A DNA stretch of 64,000 nucleotides, taken from assembly GCF_018977255.1 (NCBI RefSeq), contig NW_024704742.1:5334001-5398000 (forward strand), read 5' to 3'. The stretch is from Callorhinchus milii (lineage: Eukaryota). Below are positions 11,310 through 50,703 of this stretch, in pieces; within the stretch, counting starts at the first letter, position 1, and each line of letters starts with the position of its first letter. Both the position numbers and the translations under genes were made by a program. The notes beneath the pieces are model-generated. The model ran no database searches. It had not been told where the DNA came from and saw only the letters and a program-made list of their open reading frames with translations.

Positions 11310-12128
11310 AAGGAAGTTACGAGGAAAGGCTGCGTAAACTTGGATGTATTCCCTTGAGTTTAGAAGGTTGAAGGGTGATTTGATTAAGGTATTTAAGATG
11401 ATAAAGGGATTTGATAGAGTAGATACAGAGAAACTATTTCTTCTGGTGGGAGAATTCCAAATCAAGGGGGGCAGAGTCTGAAAATTAGAACCAGGCCATT
11501 GAAGAGTGAAATCAGGAAGCATTTTTTCACTCAAAGGCTGGTAGAAATCTGGAATTCTCTCCCCCAAAAAGCCATGGATGCTGGATCCATCCACACCTTC
11601 AAGAGTGAGGTTGATCTCTCAGCCCCGAGGCTCTGGAACTCCATCCCCCAGTGCCTTCGCCTTCGCTTCCTCCCTTTCCTCCTTCAAGGCCGGTGGTCTC
11701 AAGACCTTTCTCTTTGACCGTGCCTTCAGCTCCCCTCTCGACTCTCTACCCCCTCCTCGCTCCCTCCCTTCCCTCCCCTCACCCTGACCATTCCCCCCTC
11801 CTCGCTCCCTCCCTTCCCTCCCCTCACCCTGACCATTTCCCTCCTCCTCGCTCCCTCCCTTCCCTCCCCTCACCCTGACCGTTTCCCCCCAATGCTCGGG
11901 TCATGACCCAACTGTACAGCGCCTTGGGACGTCCTCCCGACGTGAAAGGCGCTCTATAAATGGAATCTTGTTGTTGTTGTGATAGATTTTTAGTAGGTCA
12001 GAGTATTAACGGCTTTGGGGAGAAAGCAGGAAATTGAAATTAGTTGAGGTACAGATCAGCCATGATCTAATTAAATGACAGAACAGGCTCGAGGGGCTGA
12101 ATGGCCTCCCCCTGTTCCTATGTTCCTA
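11310..12128 (+). mobile_element. CR1 LINE 3' part (ORF2 C-terminus and tail), interrupted by an L2 at 11616-11979
   Basis: RRLKGDLIKVFKMIKGFDRV and EIRKHFFTQRLVEIWNSLPQKA peptides; ggctgaatggcct...tgttcctatgttcct tail. Confidence 0.92.
11616..11979 (+). mobile_element. Young 5'-truncated L2 LINE nested in CR1, TSD TGAT
   Basis: SAPRLWNSIP peptide, C/T-rich 3'UTR, stem-loop and (TTG)n tail; near-identical to 19920-20373. Confidence 0.92.
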
Positions 12129-18865: not shown

Positions 18866-19919
18866 AGGAGGGACGTTAGAGGAAGGGAAAGCCAAAAGTA
18901 TACGTGATCGTATTTGGTAATGTTTATGTCACCGAGTACCAAAGCCAACCAAACAAACCTGTGGTGAGAAGCTCTTGCATTTCCATATCTATACATCATT
19001 TGCAGGGAAATTCTGTCAGCCTGACTCGGTTGGTAGCACTTGTGCCTTTAAGTCAGAAGGTTGTGGGTATAAATATAACGCAGCCACTAACAGATTTCAA
19101 GGGAAACTTTTGCGTTGTACAGTTCATGTAATTCTATGTAAACCTGTTAAGAAATACTGCACGTTAGACCTGGCCGGGGGGGGGGGGGGTTAGATATTTG
19201 TTGTACTATCCTGTATTTTGTATAAATGTAACTAAAGCAAGTTAAGAAAATGTAATCTGAAGCTGCATGAAATAATTTTACAGACTGATGCACCTTACAG
19301 ATTAATACGCTGGGGTTATTTGTTTAGTTGCCCCCTGACTCAGAGGACGAGACATTGAATTATAAATCAGTAAACAAGAGCGTCACAATAAAGCCTGAGT
19401 AAAGTGTGGCTTTGAGGTCCGTTGCCTTATGTTTGGTGTCCCCCACCCTACCAATAGGCTATTGGGATAGACCGCTGCAAATGGGCACGAATGAGAAAAG
19501 TTGCTGTACAGTGTTCTGGTTTGTGCCAAATTACGGTGACCCGATTCCTTCCCTTTCACGGCACTCTTTTGTCCCATCACTGCGTCGTCGACCATCTGCT
19601 AATTCTGCTCTGCAGAAATTGGTGTTGGTTCTCCTCCGACTTTCATTAAGAGATCAATAGCAGATGTAATTAAAATGAAATCTGAGACGTTAAACTTCTT
19701 CATAGAAACCGCAGTGCCATCATCTGACCAAAAGCGTCTTTTTTTTTTAAAAAAATAGCACGCCAGATGCTTTTCGGTTTATAATTACAAAGCCTTTCAC
19801 ATAATGTACCCACATTTTTTTTTTTTAGCGTGACCTCGTTTGATCAAGATTTCCAGGGAAGTCAGGACTAATAACTTATGGTTATCCGTATTACTTCAAT
19901 AACAAAGGTGACTTAAGAC

Positions 19920-20373
19920 ACAACAACAACAACAAGATTCCATTTATTGAGCGCCTTTCACGTCGGGAGGACGTCCCAAAACGCTGGACAGTTGGGTCAG
20001 GACCCGAGCATTGGGGGGAAATGGTCAGAGTGAGGGGAGGGAAGGGAGGGAGCGAGGAGGGGGTAGAGAGTCGAGGGGGAGCTGAAGGCTCGGTCAAAGA
20101 GAAAGGTTTTGAGACCGGCCTTGAAGGAGGAAAGGGAGGAAGCGGCGAAGGCACTGGGGGATAGAGTTCCAGAGCTGAGAGGCTGAAGGCCCGACCACCG
20201 ATGGTAGGGCGGTTGGGGCGGGGGATGTGGAGCAGACCGGAGCCAGAGGAACGGAGGGTACGGGCAGGTAGGTAGGGGGATAGTAGGTCGGAGAGGTAGG
20301 AGGGAGCGAGGCCGTGGATAGCCTTGTAGGTGAGGATGAGGATCTTGAATTCGAGTCTCTGTCTGTTCCGCAC
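19920..20373 (-). mobile_element. Young L2 LINE 3' end
   Basis: FKILILTYKAIHGLAPSYLSDLL...RTLRSS...GGRAFS is the L2 ORF2 C-terminus; (TTG)n tail. Confidence 0.94.
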
Positions 20374-21800
20374 TGCTCCTTAAGGCCTTATTTCAGTGGC
20401 CCTGAATTTGTGGTGAAGGTTTGTTTGGATACGGCATTGATCCTTTTGCTAGCAGTGCTTTTAAATAGTCTCTGAAAGCGCTGCCTTTAAAAACTGGCGA
20501 GTTCTTAACCATCAGCTGTTGTACAGTAACGAACAGGTATTATACATTAAAAGGGATTTTTTTTGGGGGGGAGTCAACCAGGTGTCGGTTGACCTCCTGC
20601 GCGTAGAAATCCCAGAGATAGATTGTTGGAATGGACTCCGCACCCTCTCCCTGGAGGAACGCATCCTGTTTACCTAATTCTGGAAATTATTAGATAAGAG
20701 CCAAGCCTTGGGAACCCGAGAGTGTTTGTCGGGGGTGACTGCTGGATTGGAGCCAGCAAAAACCGCACAGCTTGCCATCGATATGACTGTCTGGCAAGCT
20801 TTCCCGCTGCGTGTCGTTCATGATTCACGCGCGAGGGAGAAGGGAATAGGGAGGGGGATTAGGATGGGCGGGTTAGGATGGTTTGGAGGCACTGGTGATG
20901 TCTGTTCGGATACTGTCCTGTGTGTGTAACAAAACACTTCCCGAGAGCCACGCTTGCAACGAGAAGCTTACGTTGACCGGGGTCTGTTTTAGTCCAGGTT
21001 CAAATTGCAACCCTTGCGCTGTACGCTGTTGCTGAGTACAAGGTACACAGTTACTCCGGAGCACTGCAGCCGCAGCAACCTGTAGTACGACTGTCCTCTT
21101 TAGCTGTGGTCAGGGATCGCAGTTTGTATCTTCTTCGTGAGACAATCTTGCTTTTTTTTAAAAAAAAATAGACAAAAAAATGTGCAACCTACCAGCAATT
21201 AGGTCAATGTATTAATTTCCCTGCGGTTGGGTTTGAACGTACCCGGAGCCTGATTGGAAGTGACCTACAGTCGCTTTCAGCTGGTATATCCCATTACAGT
21301 CTGGGTGATGAGAAGCGTCGGGTTACGGACTCTCCCAGTTCACTAAGTGTCTTTCGAGCCTAGGTAGGGAGTAATTGATCCTTAACCCCTTTTTGAGAAG
21401 AAGTATCGATTGTCGCTGACCCTATAAAACGCACGGTGTACTGTATATTTGTCATTCAGATGGAAGGAGGGTTCTCCGTCACTCCTCTGCTGGGCGGGAA
21501 GAAGTAATGGAACTTCAGTTGACCTCGGACGCCACTTAAGACGGACAGAACGGCTGGCCCCGATGTGTCCGGCTTAACCGGCTTCCACTGTACCCCTACT
21601 TCCGAAGCCATCTGGGACAGTGCACCATTGCTCAGTCTCACAACACTTAACTGTTTTCTGATCTCATGTCTCGGTCTGCTCTTGAGGAGATGTCTCTCCC
21701 GAGGTCTCCCATTTCCTCTGCCAGATTGAGGAGTCAATCGCTATCAAGCTGTGAAAATTCCGTTCCTTGTTTTAAACACCTCAGTCAGGTTACCTGTAGT

Positions 21801-28710: not shown

Positions 28711-29641
28711 TGCACACACACGCACACGCACCTTTCAACAAGCATCACTGTATGGTGATCAGGAGTGGGTATAATGAATCCCCTCCCCTCCCCCCTCTCC
28801 TTAAATCAAGAGGCATTGGAAACGCGTCGAGTGCTCTCTGACAGAGATCACCAGATCAAACCTAGGACTCTCCTGGTCCGAGCAGCTCAGTTCCTGCAGT
28901 GCAGTTACCGATTGAGCCAAAAGAGAGCTGAAAGCGTTCATTCGGACTGTGCCTGGTGCTGCGCTGTCTGGCGTGGTACTGAGCTCCTCAGCAGAAAGAC
29001 TGGTTTGCCCTGAGTTAGCTGATCTCAATGGGGGCTATGTCCACTTTGCCGTCTGGCTGTGTCGCTGCTGTGCGTGGCGGGGGCCCTTGTGGACTATCAT
29101 AGGAACGAGAGTTGGACATTCAGCCCCTCGAGCCTGTTGCGCCGTTCTATAAGATCACTCGCCCTTTGCCCTGTATCCCTTAACATGGGGCAGATCTTCA
29201 GTGTCTGCCAATACTGTACCGTAAATCGCGAGTTGCTGCAATCGAAGCACGTTCTCAGAAGCACTCTGAAAGGCAAGTTGGAAGCATTGAAACCCTCTCT
29301 AGGAATGTGATGCAGACGGAACCCCCCCCCCACACCCCCCACCCCCCCCCCCACCAGTATTCTGTTATTTTCGTGCCTTTTACGTAAAAAACTGTCCTCA
29401 GAATCCGTAACTCAACAGAAAATTCGAACAATAATAATCCTTGCATTTGATATAGCGCCTTATCGTGTCTTCGAGATGCCTCGAAGGGGCCTCCGCAGGA
29501 CACAGGGTACTGTAAACTCTACGTAACTCCCTCAGGGGTGGATTTGCGGATTTCCGTTGGGAGAAAGAACTGATCATTTCGGGGATGTCACTGGAATTTT
29601 TTCTTCACAGGAGATTTTTGTGTGTGTTTCTTTTTCAAAAG

Positions 29642-29788
29642 GGAGTGTTGTCCAATATCTCGTCCATTACGGATCTGGGTGGGTTTGATCCGGTCTGGCT
29701 ATTTCTGGTGGTCGGATGCGTAATGTTCATCCTGGGATTTGCAGGGTGCATCGGGGCTCTGCGAGAGAACACGTTCCTGCTGAAGTTT
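29642..29788 (+). CDS. TSPAN5: TSPAN5 exon 3, 147 nt: [49 protein letters not shown]
   Basis: tttttcaaaag| acceptor and |gtaagt donor; tetraspanin GCIGALREN signature. Confidence 0.96.
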
Positions 29789-29824
29789 GTAAGTACTCAG
29801 TGTTCGTTTCCCCCCCCCACGGTC

Positions 29825-30420
29825 CAACAACAACAACTTGCGTTTAGAAGGGTCTCGGAGCGCTTTACAGTGGCGGAATCTGACCCAGAGCCACGGGGGA
29901 GAGGGATGGGTGGGGGGGGGGGTGGGTAGGGTTGGGGGAAGGTGACCGTAAGCACCATCAAAAAGGAAAGTCTTTAGGTGGCATTAGAAAGTGGGGGGGA
30001 GAGGGGAAGGCGGAGAGATTGGCGGAGAGAGTTCCTAAGTAGCTGAAAGCACGGCCGCCGATGGTGGAGGGGACGAGGGATGGACAGGAGGCCGGAGCCA
30101 GCCATGCGGAGGCAGCAGGTGGTGGAGTGAGGGACAAATCAGACTTGGTGGGGTCTACAAGCCTTGGCTCTCACCAGCCGGTCCTAACACTCTCCGGGAT
30201 TAGATAAACAGTGGGGATACTTCCAGGGAGGCAGATAATGTCTGTATCTGGTTTGGCGGTGATGGGTTTCCGTATGTTCCGGNAAAAAACAGTCCTGGTC
30301 GGGGAGCAGGTGTGGGGTAGGAAGGAAAGCTGGGGATCGAACCTGATGCCCAAGTTGCGCACTTGTTTGGAGAGTCTGAGGGAGAGCCTGGGAGGGTGTT
30401 GAGGAGTTCAGATCCGCAGG
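29825..30420 (-). mobile_element. L2 LINE fragments; other L2 3' pieces near 280-500 (-), 24330-24715 (-), 39795-40225 (+), 41800-42075 (+) and 47640-47990 (+)
   Basis: VRNLGIRFDPQLSFLPH, PILTQLHWLP and RAFSHCAPNLRNPLP peptides; (CAA)n tails. Confidence 0.82.
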
Positions 30421-40639: not shown

Positions 40640-41752
40640 CCACATTTCTCTGGGGACTGGGTGGTACAGTGAGAAGAATGCCTTTTCTTCTCCGGGTAAA
40701 GAAAGAAAAAACGTTCTGGTGTCCAGCCTGAATTGAACTCTAAACCTTATGTCCTCTTGTTCTATTGTCATTCCTCTAACGCTGTGCATCCTAGAGTATG
40801 GGTTTACTTATTCAATCCCATTTAAAATGTTGTACGCCTCTATGAGGTCCCTTCTGAGTCATCTTCTCTCAAGACTGAAGAGTTGTTGTGCATAGCTCAT
40901 TCCTCTAACAGTGGACATTATCCTCATTGCTCACCTCTGCCCTTGAAGTGCTCCAGGATACTACCCCACATGATGGGCGCTATATAAATGCGAGTTGTTG
41001 TTTTTGTATGTTGCGGTGACCAGACTTTGCAGTATCCAGGGTGTGGTCTGACCAGAGCATGGAACAGCCTGAGTATGACGTCTGTGGATCTAAACTCAAC
41101 TGAGTTAACAGTACAGCCCAGCATCCTGTTTGCCTTGGTTATTGCTGCCTCAAACTCTTTTCACAGCGTGAGCAATGAGTCATCTAACACCCCTAGATCA
41201 CGTTCTGCTTCCCCCAGGCTAGTTCTCTCCCATCCATCAAGTACTTTTGTTTCTTATTCTTACATCCAGTATGTAGAATCTTGCATTGATCAGTACTAAA
41301 CTTGATTTGCCAGTTATCGGCCCATGTGCATTCCCTGTCAAGCTCTTTTTGTAGGACCTTTGCTGCCCCCCCCCTCTGATTCCACAGTTTCCCCCCAATT
41401 TGGTGTCAAGTTTAAGTGCTCCATTGTGTCTGCGAATCCAAGTCATCACGTTTTGTGAGAAACAGGAGGGGCTCTGCTTCCTTCCCTTCAGCCCGTACTG
41501 AATCCATGTCCATGCCTTATCCTTGATACTCAGTGACCACAGTTTGTGGAGGAGTCTTTCATGTGATACTTGATTGAACGCCTTTTGGGAGTCCAAATAT
41601 TCTGCAATCACATGGCAATTTGGACCGTTACTTCGTCCTATGAGATTGGTCAGACAAGACCTACGCTTTCTGAATCTGTGTTGACTGCCATTTATTAGAT
41701 TATTCTTATGTAGGTAATCTTCCACTTGCTTTCTGATGATTGACTCCATAAC
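40640..41752 (-). mobile_element. Decayed CR1 LINE ORF2 (reverse transcriptase region) in TSPAN5 intron 7
   Basis: MESIIR...SQHRFRKRRSCLTNL...YLDSQKAFNQVSHERLLHKL and LFHALVRPH peptides, with frameshifts. Confidence 0.92.
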
Positions 41753-42123
41753 CTTTCCTTTTTTTTTTCTCGCATTTATTGAAGTCTTACATCCTTATGC
41801 AAGACCAGCTCTTGTCCCTCGGCTCCAACATCAATGACCGTGCTTTCAGCCACTGTGCCCCAAACCTCCGGAACCCACTGCCTCGATCCCTCTGTCTTGC
41901 CCCCTCTTTGCCGGTCTTCAGATCACACCTGAAGACTTTCCTCCGACCAACCGTCTGTCCGTGCCTACGGTCACCTCCCCTTTCTCCCTGCCTCGGCACC
42001 AAACTATACCATTGTCCAGTCCTCCGAGATGTTCCATCGCCTGATGAGTTTTGTATAAACGCGTGTTGTTGTTTCAATGTTAAAGACAGTTTCAGTGATG
42101 TTTGGCTTGCTCATCTCTTTCAG

Positions 42124-45419: not shown

Positions 45420-46200
45420 CATTCCTCAAAAGACGCAATCTTGACCCCTCCAACCTCACAAATTACCATCCCATTTCCAACCTGCCCTTCCTTGCCAAAG
45501 CTCTAGAACAAATTGTCGCTAACCAGCTTAGCACTCACCTCTCGCTCCACGAGCCCCAGCATTCTGGTTTCTGCATTGCCCATTGCACAGCAGTCACAAA
45601 CCTGCCGATAGCTGGTCAAGGTCACAAACTACATCCTTTCTCGCTGTGACCAGGGCTCCCTCTGCCTCCTCATCCTCCTGGATCTCTCCTCCGTGTTCGA
45701 CACAGTTGACCAAGCCATCCTCCTCCACTGCCTCTTCTCCCTCATCCACCTCAGTGGGACTGCACTAGCCTGGCTCGAATCCTACCTAACAAACCACCTT
45801 CACTTTATCTCCTCAAACGGTTTCTTCTCCCGTCTCTGCCTTGTTGTGCACTTGTTGTGTACCCCAGGTCTCCATCCTTGGCCACCTCCTCCTTCTTCAT
45901 CTATATGCTCCCTCTTGGGGATGTCATCCGTAGACAAGAGGGTAAACTTCCTCTTGTATGCAGATGAAACATAAATCTACCTCTCCTTCTCCAGCTGCGG
46001 CTCCAAGGTCTAAATGAGTGAAAACTTCCTACAATTCAATGTTGACCAGACGGAAACTGTACTTATTGGCTCCCGTCAATGTCTTTTATCCTGCGGCTTT
46101 GACCTCCAACTTCTCCGGCTTATCCCTCACTTACCGAACCAGTGCGCAACCCAGGCGTCAGGTTCGACCCACTGCTATCCTTCCTTCCCCTCCACCTGAA
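45420..46200 (+). mobile_element. Decayed L2 LINE ORF2 (reverse transcriptase) between the two genes
   Basis: LDPSNLTNYHPISNLPFLAKALEQIVANQL, FDTVDQAILL, LYADET and MSENFLQFNVDQTE peptides. Confidence 0.92.
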
Positions 46201-46910
46201 GACCTTCCTATTCAAGACCTACGGTCACCTCCCCCTACCCTGGTTCGACGTCGTGCTCTGCCAGTCAAGTGCTCTGCGACGCTACCCCAAGTGAGGGACG
46301 CAAGTTGTTATAACGATGGGCCGAATGGCCTCTTTTTGTGCTGTATGATTCTATGATAATTTGAGTGCTGAAAGCTGCTCGAGAAACTTCCTGCAACTGA
46401 AAATAGCTCTTAAGCATTAATATAAGCATTATATAATTGTATCTAATTCTGGTCTCCACATTATAATAGAGGAAGGAATTATAGCAGCGATGGAAAGAGT
46501 ACAGCATAGGTTTACGCAGATAATACCAGGATTGGCAGGTTACTGCGATCAGGATAGACTAGATAGCATTTTTTGCTAGAAGAGGGGATCTAATAGAAGT
46601 GTTAAAATCATGAAAGGGTTTGATATCATGAAAGACTTCAGCACTCTTTATTTTCTCGGGAGCCCACAATGGTGGAAGTATTCAATCTATGTGAATCTTC
46701 TCACGCAGTTGAACATACTCAAATGAACGAAGGTGGAAGCGAAGGCCACAAATCTACCGAAAGCTGTGTTAGAAAGTAGCAGTTGCAAGAAAATGAGATG
46801 GTGGAATGCACCTACTACACCTACAGACTTGTAAACAAATTTCAGTTACTCCATTTTCAATCCTACACACTAAGAAAATCAACACATTAGACACCACTGG
46901 GAACTTACGG

Positions 46911-46921
46911 TTTAATTTATT
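46911..46921 (-). promoter_or_regulatory. Candidate RAP1GDS1 poly(A) signals (overlapping AATAAA/ATTAAA); another AATAAA lies at 47263-47268
   Basis: + strand tttaatttatt reads AATAAATTAAA on the - strand, about 520 nt after the stop. Confidence 0.45.
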
Positions 46922-47435
46922 AATTCTAGGTACCATGATATTACATCATTAACAGCCAACATTTGGGAAAGGTTCATGATGCACGCTATTTTGGTTTTTT
47001 TTTGGCTCTTGGAAGCATTAAGAATGGAGCATGAAGCAAGCTTCAATAGTTGAATCTAAAGGAAAATTTCAGGTTTTAAACTGCAGCGTCCTCAGTCTCT
47101 CGCGTTTATCACTGCATGGAATAGGAGTGCGGTGTCTGTGTAAGATGGGTGCAATTCTCCTAGAAACAGTCACATTGTTATTTTACTACGACATGCAAGT
47201 TCTACCACATTGTTTCTGGCAACAAGGGACATTGAAGAGGATGTGGAATGACAACTGGTAATTTTATTTGAGTCACAGCTCGCAGTTGAAATGACTTGGT
47301 CCCAGTTTCTGCCAGACTGGGCCCATCTATGCATGCACAGGGAGTGAGGAGGAAGAATGCCGCACGAGCAGCTCACAGCAGACAAAGGTGACCCGTTGAC
47401 GAGATACTGAAGGACAGGTAAACTGGGAACAAATC

Positions 47436-47563
47436 TCAGCTTTCAACAGTCAGTCTCTGCTCGGTCACGGATGCCTGCTGGGCGACAAGTTTGTTCTCGT
47501 GACTGCGGAGCTTGGACACCACCTCTTTGAATGGCATACTCTGTGCTTCCTTCTTGAGTAGTT
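47436..47563 (-). CDS. RAP1GDS1: RAP1GDS1 terminal coding exon (~15): ELLKKEAQSMPFKEVVSKLRSHENKLVAQQASVTEQRLTVES*
   Basis: ccctttcag| acceptor; TGA at 47438-47436; the TEQRLTVES C-terminus matches SmgGDS. Confidence 0.95.
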
Positions 47564-48248
47564 CTGAAAGGGTAAGAAAGAGACATTCAGCGATTTGCCT
47601 TGCAAATATATTCCCGCACCAGGCTCCGCGACCCTATCGCCCCTACCCTCGCCCCGGCTCCACTGGTGCCCCATCACTCAAGAGGATACAGTTCAAGATC
47701 CTGGTCCTCACCTTCAAAGTCCGACACGGCCTTGCTCCTGTCCGCTCTGTTAGCTCAGCAGCCTCAGGCCTGTCCACTCTGTTAGCTCAGCAGCCTCAGG
47801 CCTGCTTCACGTCTCCCACCTTGCTGGCCCCATCATTGGGGATGGGCCTTCAGCCTCTCTGCCTCCACCCTCTGAAACTCCATCCCACGGTCCCTCTGCC
47901 TCTCCCCTCCCTTGCCTCCTTCGAGATCAGTCTCAAGACCCTCCTCTTTGATCGTGCATTCGGTCACCCTCCTTCCCCTATCCTCTCCTCTGCAGTAAAC
48001 GCCCAGCATCTGGAAGTTTTTGTAATAATATTAGCTAATGCTCCACAAAGTCTATGAATTTCAAAACTTACTATTGCAAAAAAATTGGTACTATCAGATC
48101 AAGAACTCTCTATGACAATAGAACAGTTTGGCAGCCGTGGGATTAGGAATAAATTCCAGAAGCATTTTACTTACTCGTCAGATATCAACCAATCAACCAT
48201 GTTTGGCTCACTTTGTTACACTGATAACTCACAATGTGCAATGCTCAC

Positions 48249-48377
48249 CTGACCCCATGATGGTGCAAACCATGATCATTGAGTTGTACTTAATTTCTGG
48301 TGCACTGACATCATCAGAAACCAATTTGTGTAGAACTTGCACAAGTTTGGCATTCTCTAGATCCTGTTCTGCAGTAC
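48249..48377 (-). CDS. RAP1GDS1: RAP1GDS1 penultimate exon (~14), 129 nt: GTAEQDLENAKLVQVLHKLVSDDVSAPEIKYNSMIMVCTIMGS
   Basis: gttgttcccatcag| acceptor and |gtgagc donor; SAPEIKYNSM motif. Confidence 0.95.
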
Positions 48378-48387
48378 CTGATGGGAA

Positions 48388-48454
48388 CAACAACAACTTT
48401 ACATTTGTATGGCGCCTTTTACAACAGGAGGAAATCGAAAGGGACACTTATCCC
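48388..48454 (-). mobile_element. L2/SINE-type 3' tail (...aaaaggcgccatacaaatgtaaa(gtt)n) joined to the duplicate and ending 10 nt before the exon acceptor
   Basis: Resembles the ...aaaggcgctctataaatggaatc(ttg)n ends of the L2 copies at 11979 and 19920. Confidence 0.75.
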
Positions 48455-48961
48455 TTTTGGCTCTTGGAAGCATTAAGAATGGAGCATGAAGCAAGCTTCA
48501 ATATTTGAATCTAAAGGAAAATTTCAGGTTTTAAACTGCAGCGTCCTCAGTCTCTCGCGTTTATCACTGCATGGAATAGGGAGTGCGGTGTCTGTGTAAG
48601 ATGGGTGCAATTCTCCTAGAAACAGTCACATTGTTATTTTACTACGACATGCAAGTTCTACCACATTGTTTCTGGCAACAAGGGACATTGAAGAGGATGT
48701 GGAATGACAAATGGTAATTTTATTTGAGACACAGCTCGCAGTTGAAATGACTTGGTCCCAGTTTCTGCCAGACTGGGCCCATCTATGCATGCACAGGGAG
48801 TGAGGAGGAAGAATGCCGCACGAGCAGCTCACAGCAGACAAAGGTGACCCGTTGACGAGATACTGAAGGACAGGTAAACTGGGAACAAATCTCAGCTTTC
48901 AACAGTCAGTCTCTGCTCGGTCACGGATGCCTGCTGGGCGACAAGTTTGTGCTCGTGACTG
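48455..48961 (-). pseudogene. Intragenic duplicate of the RAP1GDS1 last-exon 3' end and 3'UTR (source 47000-47505), inserted in the intron before the penultimate exon
   Basis: Direct comparison shows 4 substitutions and one 1-bp insertion over ~506 bp; same orientation as the source. Confidence 0.96.
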
Positions 48962-49088
48962 GGAAGGGAATGTAAAGTAAAATATTCCAAAATTAAGTGC
49001 TAAGTATTAAGAAACGTTATGGAACGAACACCAATGCTAGTTATTTAAATGCCGTCTACCTTTCATGCTACAAAATATGCTTTTAAGC

Positions 49089-49356
49089 ATTTGTTTAGCA
49101 ACTTTACTAACCAATTAGTCACCAAGATGATAGAACCAAATGATTTTTTTTTCCCCCTGCTACCTTCAAAAGAAATCCTCACATGATTTGAACTCCTTCT
49201 TTGGTAAAATGGTTTTTCCCCCTGCCACTTTGCCCCTACAGAAGCAGTCCAAATCATGTGAGAATTTTTTTTTGAAGGTAGCAGGGGGAAAAAAAAATCA
49301 TTTGGTTCTATCATCTTGGTGATCGTAATTGGTTATAGTAAACTTGCTAAATAAAT
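49089..49356. repeat. Long inverted repeat (foldback, MITE-like), ~110-bp arms and ~40-bp spacer
   Basis: tcaccaagatgatagaaccaaatgatttttttttccccctgctaccttcaaaa (from 49119) has its exact reverse complement ending at 49322; the outer and inner arms pair imperfectly. Confidence 0.93.
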
Positions 49357-50576
49357 ATATTGGCTGATGTGTGTTGGCCAATAATATACCAGACCAGACA
49401 TTCTTTGTGCAGTTGCATTTTTACATTCCAAAATTCTTTGGCTTCTGTTTATTTGCTCTATACAAAGTCATTGAGGTTTTTTTCTGATTCCTTCCACCAA
49501 TATAATAGTGAAAGCTGGGAGAAATCCCCTGAACATCAGAGGTTATTGTTTCCAAAACGAACAAAACTATCTTACCCAGCATATGTGCATCAAGTGCATA
49601 ATCACATATGTCAGTGAGTGTTTTCGCTATTTGGAGCAATATAATACATTTATATTGTGCCTTTCACATCAAGAAGATGACTCAAAGCACCCGCGGTTCT
49701 TTGATAAGATGACAGCAACAAGAGATCTGGCAGGGGCCATGTGCAAAAGCAAGTTAACCCATAACGGGTTTTCATTATGGTCTGCCGAGAAATGTCATTA
49801 GCATAATCATAATTTAATGCACTACAAATCTAATGCTGCATGGTCTTTCCATCACAGTAATTGTATTGTTTTGATCCATGAGCTAAGCACTTGAGCAGCT
49901 GAAAAGCCAATGTCCACTAATTAATTACAGGCTGAGGTTGGGGAGCCTCAGAGAATCCAGATAACCCTGTTCATTATTACAGACAATTCAACCATTGCTG
50001 CTATTTTTGATCGTTAGTTCAACTGACTGCACTTCTGCTCAATTTTCTAGGCAACCTGGAACTGTGCTTTTTTGATAAGTTGACAATCGAAGACTTAGTG
50101 TTGAGGGAAGTCAGACTTGGGAGTATTTCTTTGCAGCAAATTTGACATACACTAACTACTTTGGGAAATCACAGAACAATAACAAGTCTTATAAATGTCA
50201 ATCACGCAGAAGGATCCATGGAACGATGAAACAGGGCACCGACATCTGCTATGTATTTATACAATAATTATTTATGCATTTTTGCAGCGCTGGCTTGAGC
50301 ACTAGCACCAGGAACATTTCTCCGCCTTCATACACTTCTACTGCTGTCAGTATGCTCGAGCGATTTTTGTTGCATCCCAAATTCAAGCATGGATTCAAAA
50401 ATGTATTCACGGTTAAAGAAATCAGTGTATTTATTAACTGTTCTAAAATAAACTCTCTCAACACACCAAGATTATTGTGTCCCGTTTGATGCTGATATCG
50501 TACCTACAATCTGCAGGACAAAGTTAACCAAACCTCGGTTTTGGTTAAATTCATATTGTGCATACACTCCACTTAC

Positions 50577-50703
50577 CGAGTTCCAGCGCAGCTATCAGTC
50601 CCAGAGCAACGAGAGCTTCATTCTGCATTATAACATGTTCACTCGTTGCCATAGTGACCAGATGTTTTACACCACCACTTTGAACAATGGTCTTAACGAC
50701 GTC
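50577..50703 (-). CDS. RAP1GDS1: RAP1GDS1 ~exon 13, 127 nt: DVVKTIVQSGGVKHLVTMATSEHVIMQNEALVALGLIAALEL
   Basis: ttgtcag| acceptor and |gtaagt donor; phase 0/1. Confidence 0.96.

What the first reader, a model, noticed from the sequence alone, without database searches (positions are those of the whole stretch)
48382..48965. RAP1GDS1 carries a chimeric, TSD-flanked copy of its own 3' end inside its own splice acceptor
Seen in sequence: on the - (gene) strand the insert reads [copy of last-exon end + 3'UTR; source 47505->47000; 5 differences in ~506 bp] + [67-bp L2/SINE-like tail ending in (GTT)n]. TGGGAA flanks it at 48382-48387 and 48960-48965. Removing the insert and one TGGGAA restores a textbook acceptor, ttttactttacattcccttcccatcag|GTACTG. 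The copy's 3' end falls in an A9 run of the source. Inference: this looks like target-primed reverse transcription that began on a LINE/SINE RNA tail and switched template to the host's own transcript (as in U6-L1 chimeras), landing about 1 kb from the source. Caveats: the copy spans no exon junction, so an RNA intermediate is unproven. The tail is also more diverged from the young L2 tails than the copy is from its source, which allows a DNA-templated repair insertion or later gene conversion.
Basis: partly seen in the sequence, partly recalled or inferred. Interest (0 to 1): 0.9.

Follow-up and report, generated by a model that had tools for sequence, protein, structure and literature searches.

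The report
Gene's own 3' end copied into its intron
A vertebrate RAP1GDS1 gene carries, four bases in front of one of its exons, a real 572-base insertion made of a copy of the gene's own 3' end fused to the tail of a jumping element, most likely created in one retrotransposon-type insertion event that borrowed a local template.

Summary
On the gene (-) strand the locus reads TTCCCA | 505-nt copy of last-exon end plus 3'UTR (5 differences from its source 1.46 kb downstream) | 67-nt retroelement tail ending in (GTT)n | TTCCCA | tcag | penultimate RAP1GDS1 exon. It is not an assembly artefact. Contigs of three other public runs from two studies cross its junctions. The best reading is a single target-primed, L2-type insertion of a 5'-truncated tail. 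Its 5' side was extended on a local RAP1GDS1 template before it was joined by microhomology. Whether that template was the gene's own transcript (my slight preference, about 0.4) or nearby DNA (about 0.3) cannot be told, because no exon junction is spanned. The tail is an old, CpG-decayed, stem-less version of this genome's tails, so an active element's RNA is unlikely as its source. The U6-L1 analogy is also loose, because the copy ends 103 nt before the transcript's end and the source lies in cis. The insertion also creates a cryptic, out-of-frame acceptor. I rate it a new variant of a known kind, of moderate interest.

The parts
48960..48965 (-). Upstream copy of the 6-nt flanking repeat (TTCCCA on the gene strand). 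Its last CA is also present in the source, so it doubles as junction microhomology.
48455..48959 (-). 505-nt sense copy of the last 66 nt of the coding sequence, the stop codon and 3'UTR of RAP1GDS1. It differs from the source by 4 transversions and one extra C, and 14 of 14 CpGs are kept.
48388..48454 (-). 67-nt 5'-truncated retroelement 3' tail ending in (GTT)n. It is 72% like the window's tail consensus, 4 of 5 CpGs are lost and there is no stem-loop.
48382..48387 (-). Downstream copy of the flanking repeat (TTCCCA). Its TT can also be read as part of (GTT)n.
48378..48381 (-). tcag, the remaining last four intron bases of the acceptor of the penultimate exon.
48249..48377 (-). Penultimate coding exon of RAP1GDS1 (129 nt, intron phase 1 at its start). 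It matches PDB 5xgc residues 420-461.
47436..47563 (-). Coding part of the last exon up to the stop codon. It matches 5xgc residues 464-503.
47000..47503 (-). Source of the copy, lying wholly inside the last exon. It starts 60 nt after the exon's first base and ends after 4 A's of the A9 run at 47003-46995.
46916..46921 (-). AATAAA downstream of the A9 run, the likely poly(A) signal of the gene. It is not part of the copy.
   Evidence: sequence. In one search, record 24 of X5 carries 103 letters beyond the part that fits the copy; that these are the rest of the 3'UTR is inferred.
48958..48985 (-). Cryptic acceptor made by the insertion: the old pyrimidine tract now runs into ...CCCTTCCCAG|TCACGAG. 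If used in intron phase 1, it reads Val plus TSTNLSPSRHP and then a stop.
   Evidence: Use of the site is not shown.
50577..50703 (-). The exon upstream of the intron that holds the insert (127 nt, ends G|GTAAGT). It matches 5xgc residues 378-418. The intron is 48378-50576.

Best explanation
This was one retrotransposon-type insertion event. A LINE endonuclease, or an equivalent staggered break, opened the pyrimidine tract 4-10 nt upstream of the penultimate exon. The freed 3' end of the window's + strand primed on the (GUU)n end of an RNA carrying an old L2-like tail, and 67 nt were reverse transcribed. The polymerase then left that template and continued on the sense RNA of RAP1GDS1 itself, at the A-run of the 3'UTR, copying about 505-510 nt back into the last exon. 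That RNA was at hand because the gene is transcribed through the very site. The new strand then annealed to the other side of the break through CA (5 of 7 bases match) and was sealed, which left the short flanking repeat. Shown: the anatomy, the reality of the insert in several samples, the decayed state of the tail and the microhomologies. Inferred: the endonuclease, the order of the steps, and above all that the second template was RNA. The odds of RNA against local DNA are only about 4 to 3.
For: (1) The anatomy fits target-primed reverse transcription. The element's 3' end with its microsatellite abuts the target, the tail is in sense and 5'-truncated, and a 6-nt repeat flanks the whole insert. 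Zebrafish L2-clade inserts give TSDs of about 5 bp, 5' microhomology of 1-2 bp or extra nucleotides in nearly all cases, and microhomology at about 80% of 3' junctions (passages read in PMC4245944, PMC4760211 and PMC2666801). (2) The tail belongs to the genome's (GTT)n tail family. Six other tails in the window align with it, and its last 32-36 nt are 89-91% like one of them. (3) No near-identical donor for the tail exists in the 64-kb window. The tail therefore came from elsewhere, as an RNA would, whereas the host part came from 1.4 kb away. (4) The host part lies wholly inside one exon (47000-47503 within 46897-47563). My arithmetic gives a local DNA segment of that length roughly a 1-in-10 chance of doing so; a spliced transcript must. 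(5) The host part is in sense relative to the tail, as an RNA template requires. (6) The 5' junction shows CA plus 3 of the next 5 bases shared. By my arithmetic the chance of this is about 0.006. (7) Template switching of a LINE RT to a nearby RNA is an accepted route to chimeric inserts (introduction passage of bioRxiv 10.1101/2025.02.02.635956).
Against: No exon junction is spanned, so RNA is unproven. The copy ends inside the transcript, 103 letters before the end of the contig that carries the source letters, whereas end-to-end jumping, as recalled for R2 and for U6-L1, lands on RNA 3' ends. The tail has lost the stem-loop that stringent L2-type enzymes are said to need (-8.6 against -20.9 kcal/mol; the requirement itself is recalled, not tested). 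The 5 differences in 505 nt are far more than RT error rates that I recall, and all 4 substitutions are transversions, which neither RT error nor germline decay explains well. No RNA-level evidence could be obtained for transcripts at the site.
Confidence: 0.4

Rival explanations
1. The event is the same target-primed insertion of the 67-nt tail, but the 505 nt were copied from local DNA, not RNA. Either the cDNA 3' end annealed at the A-run of the sense strand, or the upstream target 3' end (...CTTCCCA) annealed at ...CTCCGCA (47509-47503) on + strand DNA laid bare by resection of the broken target. It was then extended to the A-run, released, and re-annealed on the tail cDNA. On this reading it is an extreme case of the flank-templated 5' extra nucleotides of L2-clade inserts, or an interrupted long target-site duplication.
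For: The source lies 0.9-1.4 kb from the break on the same strand, within ordinary resection distance (recalled). For zebrafish L2 elements, about 40-50% of inserts carry 5' extra nucleotides, and a large share of these are templated by flanking genomic DNA. One of 25 wild-type inserts had a 1228-bp target duplication (passages read in PMC4245944, PMC4760211 and PMC2666801). The better microhomology is at the 5' junction (5 of 7), which suits priming from the target end. Error-prone repair synthesis could account for 5 changes in 505 nt with no CpG change.
Against: The reported extra nucleotides are 'several' bases, not 500. The copy is confined to one exon, which DNA templating does not predict (about a 1-in-10 chance by my arithmetic). 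Strand invasion on 2-4 nt of homology needs single-stranded DNA, which is assumed here.
Confidence: 0.3
2. No reverse transcriptase acted at the site. A double-strand break in the acceptor was repaired by synthesis-dependent or microhomology-mediated patching that copied two DNA templates in turn. One was an old L2-like tail somewhere in the genome and the other was the nearby 3'UTR (filler DNA, or a templated sequence insertion).
For: The tail is an old decayed copy, as random genomic DNA would be. Because TT and CA of the flanking repeat can be microhomology, the real stagger may be as small as 2 nt, so an endonuclease-type TSD is not compelled. Templated insertions at breaks are on record (title and abstract start of PMC5110952 in the listing; abstract passage of PMC11702581).
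Against: The patch would have to end, by chance, exactly in the terminal microsatellite of a retroelement, in the orientation and at the junction that target priming predicts. I estimate this at no more than 1 in 1000, given that such tails are a small share of the genome. The estimate is an inference.
Confidence: 0.1
3. There were two steps. First, an L2-type insertion of the tail produced a 1388-bp target-site duplication (47000-48387). Later, an 878-bp deletion removed the duplicated exon and intron from the upstream copy.
For: It explains the copy/tail junction as an ordinary 5' junction at a second-strand break in the A-run. A 1228-bp duplication was seen in 1 of 25 zebrafish L2 inserts (PMC2666801).
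Against: The deletion would have to start exactly 6 nt into the duplication, a chance of about 6 in 1388. The intermediate allele would also carry a duplicated exon and a premature last exon.
Confidence: 0.05
4. There were two unrelated events. An old TSD-flanked insertion of the tail decayed in place, and a recent insertion of the 3'UTR copy landed exactly at its 5' edge.
For: It would explain why the tail looks old while the copy looks young.
Against: The second break would have to hit the old junction to the base, about 1 in 1600 intron positions. The two 6-mers are still identical although the tail is 28% off its consensus. The copy has no flanking repeat of its own.
Confidence: 0.03
5. 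The insert is an assembly artefact that misjoined the 3'UTR into the intron.
For: Near-identical repeats 1.4 kb apart are a classic cause of misassembly.
Against: One search shows that contigs from X1 and X3 (study P1) cross both outer junctions, and a contig from X5 (study P2) crosses the 5' junction. These runs differ from the window at nearby polymorphic sites (49117-49289), so they are other haplotypes. Copy-specific letters at 48711 and 48729 occur beside the source letters in X3.
Confidence: 0.01

Closest known systems
U6/L1 and mRNA/L1 chimeric insertions (template switch or RNA ligation during LINE-1 TPRT)
   Same: There are two parts in the same orientation, with the element's 3' part next to the priming site and the host-derived part on the 5' side. 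One flanking repeat encloses the whole (passages of bioRxiv 10.1101/2025.02.02.635956).
   Different: The element here is a (GTT)n-tailed L2-like tail, not a poly(A) L1. The host part is a 3'-truncated internal piece of an mRNA joined at an A-run, not a complete small RNA joined at its 3' end. The source is 1.4 kb away in the same gene, not in trans. RNA origin is not shown. That preprint happens to describe human RAP1GDS1/L1PA2 chimeras, but those carry 5' exons spliced to an intronic L1, which is a different mechanism and a different species.
5' extra nucleotides and long target-site duplications of zebrafish L2-clade LINEs (ZfL2-1, ZfL2-2)
   Same: The extra sequence sits between the upstream target copy and a 5'-truncated element and derives from flanking genomic sequence. 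The TSD is about 5 bp, there is 1-2 bp of junction microhomology, and kb-scale target duplications occur occasionally.
   Different: The reported extras are several nucleotides. Here the patch is 505 nt from a place 0.9-1.4 kb away, and it is not contiguous with the target. The primary paper on the extras (Gene 2012) and Genome Res 2007 were not available to me.
Templated sequence insertion polymorphisms (TSIPs) and filler DNA at repaired breaks
   Same: A stretch templated from elsewhere in the genome is inserted at a break, with microhomology at the junctions (title and abstract start seen in the listing).
   Different: Those are described as coming from distant regions. Here the patch is fused to a retroelement's terminal microsatellite and flanked by a short repeat, which together look like class 1 (LINE-mediated) but without poly(A).
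LTR-retrotransposon-mediated chimeric retrocopies by microsimilarity-dependent template switching
   Same: A partial, 3'-truncated copy of an mRNA is joined to retroelement sequence at short shared stretches. This route is known in non-mammals, including zebrafish and chicken (passages of PMC5131818).
   Different: Those copies are flanked by LTR element sequence on both sides and integrated by integrase. Here a non-LTR tail lies on one side only.

Membership tests
Non-LTR (L2/CR1-like) insertion by target-primed reverse transcription | The element's 3' end, with its terminal repeat, sits directly at one target junction, in sense, and the element is 5'-truncated. | tested here: met
   the last 60 nt of the tail align with six other (GTT)n tails of the window
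Non-LTR (L2/CR1-like) insertion by target-primed reverse transcription | A short target-site duplication flanks the whole insert. | tested here: met
   TTCCCA stands on both sides. Up to 2 nt at each end may be microhomology, so the stagger is 2-6 nt.
Non-LTR (L2/CR1-like) insertion by target-primed reverse transcription | The tail carries the conserved stem-loop that the partner LINE's enzyme recognises (a requirement recalled for stringent L2-type LINEs). | tested here: not met
   -8.6 kcal/mol (z +0.25) against -20.9 (z -3.2) for an intact tail; 4 of 5 CpGs are lost.
Non-LTR (L2/CR1-like) insertion by target-primed reverse transcription | A partner LINE with the same tail and an intact RT exists in the genome. 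| not testable with these tools
   no genome is held. One search found only RT fragments, at 41240-41794 and 45612-45971, with no link to a (GTT)n tail. The L2 clade label itself is not tested.
U6/L1-type template-switch chimera | The 5' part is RNA-derived (spliced, or a complete RNA joined at its 3' end). | tested here: inconclusive
   the copy lies within one exon. It ends inside the 3'UTR at an A-run, not at the transcript's end.
U6/L1-type template-switch chimera | Both parts share one orientation inside a single flanking repeat. | tested here: met
Processed pseudogene (classical retrocopy) | A poly(A) tail stands at the transcript's true 3' end. | tested here: not met
   the copy keeps 4 A's of a genomic A9 run. 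The AATAAA at 46916-46921 is not included.
Processed pseudogene (classical retrocopy) | Introns are lost. | not testable with these tools
   The copy starts 60 nt after the exon's first base.
Flank-templated 5' extra nucleotides of L2-clade inserts | The extra sequence lies between the upstream target copy and the truncated element and is derived from nearby genomic sequence. | tested here: met
   definition
Flank-templated 5' extra nucleotides of L2-clade inserts | The length is several nucleotides. | tested here: not met
   505 nt
Tandem or segmental DNA duplication | The duplicated block is contiguous, with the copy abutting or replacing neighbouring sequence and no foreign sequence or flanking repeat. 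| tested here: not met
   only 505 of the 1456 nt are repeated. A foreign 67-nt tail and a 6-nt flanking repeat are present.

The most novel reading that the evidence does not exclude
A LINE enzyme working at a nick inside a transcribed intron can switch from its own template to the transcript of the very gene it is inserting into. This would write a cis retrocopy of downstream exon or UTR sequence upstream of its source. In genomes whose LINEs do not make poly(A) retrocopies, it would be a distinct route to local exon and terminal-exon duplication. Here it also built a new acceptor with an alternative stop and a UTR copy.
Probability: 0.3. Interest if true: 0.75.

Novelty: new variant of a known kind. 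Interest (0 to 1): 0.5.

Why it matters
The case bears on how non-L1 (L2-like) LINEs, which are thought to copy only RNAs that carry their own tail, can still duplicate host sequence. If the template was the local transcript, it points to capture of nascent host RNA in cis. If the template was local DNA, it extends the known few-base 'extra nucleotides' of L2 inserts to half a kilobase. Either way, the event put 572 nt between an exon's AG and its pyrimidine tract and branch site. It also created a competing out-of-frame acceptor in a conserved gene, and yet every sample that could be examined carries it. That makes the locus a natural test of how much damage a 3' splice site can take.

Tried and rejected
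(1) Whole-genome search for the tail and for other chimeras was not possible: no genome is held.

(2) Earlier scan notes gave nothing by place, by sequence or by words.

(3) Rfam gave no credible family in 46500-50000. The best hit had E 1.4 and lay far below gathering score, and there was no LINE 3' element hit on the tail.

(4) RNA evidence was not obtained. No RNA holder is listed, where the kinds are guesses. In one search, X5 has no cover on 48210-48331, which includes most of the penultimate exon. The tool says contigs that look like human DNA are dropped, so this gap says nothing about use of the normal or the cryptic acceptor.

(5) Empty-site allele: none of the 15 joints listed skips the insert, but 44 more joints were not shown. 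Absence of an empty allele is therefore not established.

(6) Organism B (X16) gave only 2 laid contigs. One lies on a SINE and the other on 48455-48780 with source letters. It gives no information on the insertion site.

(7) The joint '48961 goes back to 47600' in X1 and X3 is the source locus. The contig runs from the last intron into the last exon, whose letters also fit the start of the copy. It is not a rearrangement.

(8) I tried to find TSD lengths of other (GTT)n elements in the window. Their 5' ends could not be fixed, so I dropped this.

(9) The idea that the copy plus tail is a repeat family is rejected weakly. Contig depth over the copy is about 1.3-2 times that of the flanks, but the tool warns that depth is not copy number.

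(10) Gene conversion keeping an old copy young is rejected, because the last 49 nt and first 8 nt of the copy are identical to the source and the edges show no decay.

(11) A splice-made chimeric RNA is rejected, because there is no GT at the A-run junction in the source.

Literature searches turned up no report of a LINE-tail chimera whose host part comes from the same gene in cis. Those five word searches are the whole basis for 'not found in print'.

Full report
**What is there.** Everything below is read on the gene (-) strand.
- The locus reads: upstream intron ...TTTTACTTTACATTCCC-TTCCCA (48965-48960), then the copy, then the tail, then TTCCCA (48387-48382), then tcag, then the exon at 48377-48249.
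- The copy (48959-48455) is a 505-nt duplicate of 47503-47000. It covers the last 66 coding nt, the stop codon and 3'UTR.
- The tail (48454-48388) is 67 nt and ends in GTTGTTGTTG.
- The copy differs from the source by four substitutions and one extra C.
- The copy stops after four A's of a genomic A9 run.
- Taking out the insert and one TTCCCA restores a strong acceptor. The pyrimidine share of the tract is 0.81 then, against 0.59 now.
- The three exons at 50577-50703, 48249-48377 and 47436-47563 match human RAP1GDS1 structures at residues 378-418, 420-461 and 464-503 of 5xgc. The insert therefore lies in the 2.2-kb intron before the penultimate coding exon, four bases from the exon.
- A self-comparison of the window found 3 hits of at least 80 bp and 93% identity. 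This one (511 columns, 98.8%) is the only one that is not SINE-internal.

**It is real.** No genome is held for this window, so I used public runs.
- In two runs of one study (X1, X3), exact contigs (47933-48484 and 48051-48484, no differences) run from the downstream intron through the exon, the repeat and the whole tail into the first 30 letters of the copy. Thirty letters is one short of the tool's 31-letter rule for the tail/copy junction. However, those 30 letters occur only in this 3'UTR.
- Contigs starting at 48921 cross the 5' junction into the upstream intron in X1, X3 and X5. X5 belongs to a second study.
- These runs differ from the window at several sites in 49117-49289, so they are other haplotypes.
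- X3 shows both the copy letters and the source letters at 48711 and 48729.
- None of the 15 listed joints skips the insert, but 44 joints were not shown.
- The 'goes back 1362' joint is simply the source locus.
- A contig from a second organism label (X16) covers 48455-48780. It has the source letters at all 4 differences it covers, plus one change of its own. This suggests the changes arose on the copy. It says nothing about the insertion site.

**The tail.**
- Six other elements in the window end in related tails. The best-kept ones fold into a strong stem-loop just before ...ATACAAATG.AA..(GTT)n (-20.9 kcal/mol, z -3.2).
- The insert's tail aligns with them over its last 60 nt but matches only 42 of 58 consensus positions (72%).
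- Four of its five CpGs have lost the C by C>T. Six of 10 CpG positions changed, against 10 of 48 other positions (Fisher p 0.02).
- It no longer forms the stem-loop (-8.6 kcal/mol, z +0.25).
- It therefore looks like an old, methylation-decayed copy.
- It cannot have decayed in place while the attached copy stayed 99% identical. Gene conversion would leave diverged edges, yet the copy's first 8 and last 49 nt are identical to the source.
- No near-identical donor of the tail lies in the window.
- The tail was therefore already old when it was copied, and it came from outside these 64 kb.

**Junctions.**
- At the 5' junction, target and source share CA, and 5 of the last 7 bases (CTTCCCA against CTCCGCA). 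By my arithmetic the chance of this is about 0.006.
- At the 3' junction, TT can belong either to (GTT)n or to the repeat. The real stagger is therefore 2-6 nt.
- These features match what is reported for zebrafish L2-clade elements (passages read in PMC4245944, PMC4760211 and PMC2666801):
  - TSDs of about 5 bp;
  - 5' junctions with 1-2 bp of microhomology or with extra nucleotides, many of them templated by flanking DNA;
  - microhomology at about 80% of 3' junctions;
  - one 1228-bp target duplication among 25 inserts.

**Mechanism.** A single target-primed event explains all parts.
- The steps would be priming on the (GUU)n end of an RNA carrying the old tail, 67 nt of synthesis, a switch to a RAP1GDS1 sense-strand template at the A-run, about 505-510 nt of synthesis, and annealing to the upstream target end.
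- The source is 0.9-1.4 kb away on the same strand. A template taken at random in trans would land there with odds near one in a million for a gigabase genome (inference). The second template was therefore local.
- Two local templates give the same product. One is the gene's own transcript, made through the very site. The other is nearby DNA, for instance + strand laid bare by resection and primed from the target end at the 5-of-7 match.
- For RNA: the copy lies wholly inside one exon, which has roughly a 1-in-10 chance for a local DNA piece. Its orientation is sense. The tail itself came from elsewhere.
- For DNA: flank-templated extras and kb-scale duplications are documented for L2 elements. 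The copy also ends inside the transcript. In X5, a 598-letter contig with source letters carries 103 letters beyond the A-run, and an AATAAA stands at 46921-46916.
- I put RNA at about 0.4 and DNA at about 0.3.
- Repair without any reverse transcriptase gets about 0.1. It needs the patch to end, by luck, exactly in a retroelement's terminal repeat.
- A long duplication followed by an 878-bp deletion gets about 0.05. Two separate events get about 0.03, and an artefact about 0.01.

**Oddities.**
- All four substitutions are transversions (A>C, A>T, G>T, C>A). The chance is 0.012 at a 2:1 transition bias.
- All 14 CpGs are kept.
- This looks more like copying errors than germline decay. However, 5 in 505 is far above the RT error rates I recall.

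**Consequences (inferred).**
- The old pyrimidine tract and branch site now sit 578 nt further from the exon and run into a new CAG (…CCCTTCCCAG|TCACGAG).
- If this site is used from the phase-1 donor at 50577, it gives Val-TSTNLSPSRHP-stop. It is followed by a UTR copy with an AATAAA at 48724.
- The true acceptor now depends on GTTGTTGTTGTTCCCATCAG.
- No RNA contig informative on either site was returned.

**Comparison.**
- The insert works like LINE template-switch chimeras (U6/L1 and mRNA/L1) and like the 5' extras of L2 inserts.
- It meets the structural tests for a target-primed insert.
- It fails the stem-loop test, the poly(A) test for a classical retrocopy, and the 'several nucleotides' test for 5' extras.
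- Five word searches turned up no report of a LINE-tail chimera whose host part comes from the same gene in cis.
- I class it as a new variant of a known kind. It is a real and mechanistically instructive single case, and the RNA step is unproven.

Noticed in passing
window 49119-49175 and 49266-49322: A 57-nt inverted repeat pair is 98% complementary, with 90 nt between the arms, and an inner 33-nt pair lies inside it. It looks like a small foldback (MITE-like) element about 150 nt upstream of the insert. The public runs differ here by small indels and T>C changes.
   Followed up: partly
window 47640-48030: A very high-copy SINE sits in the last intron. Summed contig depth reaches 484,292 against about 13 for unique flanks. 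It contains a tandem 32-nt duplication at 47737-47800, and its body is related to the elements at 11480-12000 and 19900-20420.
   Followed up: partly
window 46964-46969: The word TTCCCA, identical to the flanking repeat of the insert, also stands in the source 3'UTR, 31 nt beyond the point where the copy ends. The chance is about 2% for a 100-nt span. No model needs it.
   Followed up: no
window 48455-48959 against 47000-47503: All 4 substitutions between copy and source are transversions, and none of the 14 CpGs changed. The one indel is an extra C in a CC run.
   Followed up: partly
window 29516-29926 (+): An open frame has a tetraspanin match (Pfam PF00335, E 2.4e-07, just under the cut-off). 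It is probably an exon of a neighbouring tetraspanin gene downstream of RAP1GDS1. I recall TSPAN5 beside RAP1GDS1 in human, but did not test this.
   Followed up: no
window 41240-41794 (-) and 45612-45971 (+): There are two reverse-transcriptase fragments (Pfam RVT_1, E 7.7e-10 and 0.005). They are LINE remnants just downstream of the gene. Neither could be tied to a (GTT)n tail.
   Followed up: no
window 11480-12000 (+) and 19900-20420 (-): Two SINE copies are about 91% alike and share the intact stem-loop tail. The first has an internal triplication of a CT-rich block of about 45 nt.
   Followed up: no
X16 record 10 (lies on window 48455-48780): The contig from the second organism label leaves both copy and source at 48780, with 23 unlike letters. 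The cause is unknown; it could be a chimeric contig, an adapter or a real difference.
   Followed up: no
literature, bioRxiv 10.1101/2025.02.02.635956: By coincidence, human RAP1GDS1 is reported there as the host of an intronic L1PA2 that retrotransposes as a spliced RAP1GDS1-exon/L1 chimera. This is a different mechanism, a different end of the gene and a different species.
   Followed up: partly
window 30283: A single N is the only ambiguous base in the window.
   Followed up: no
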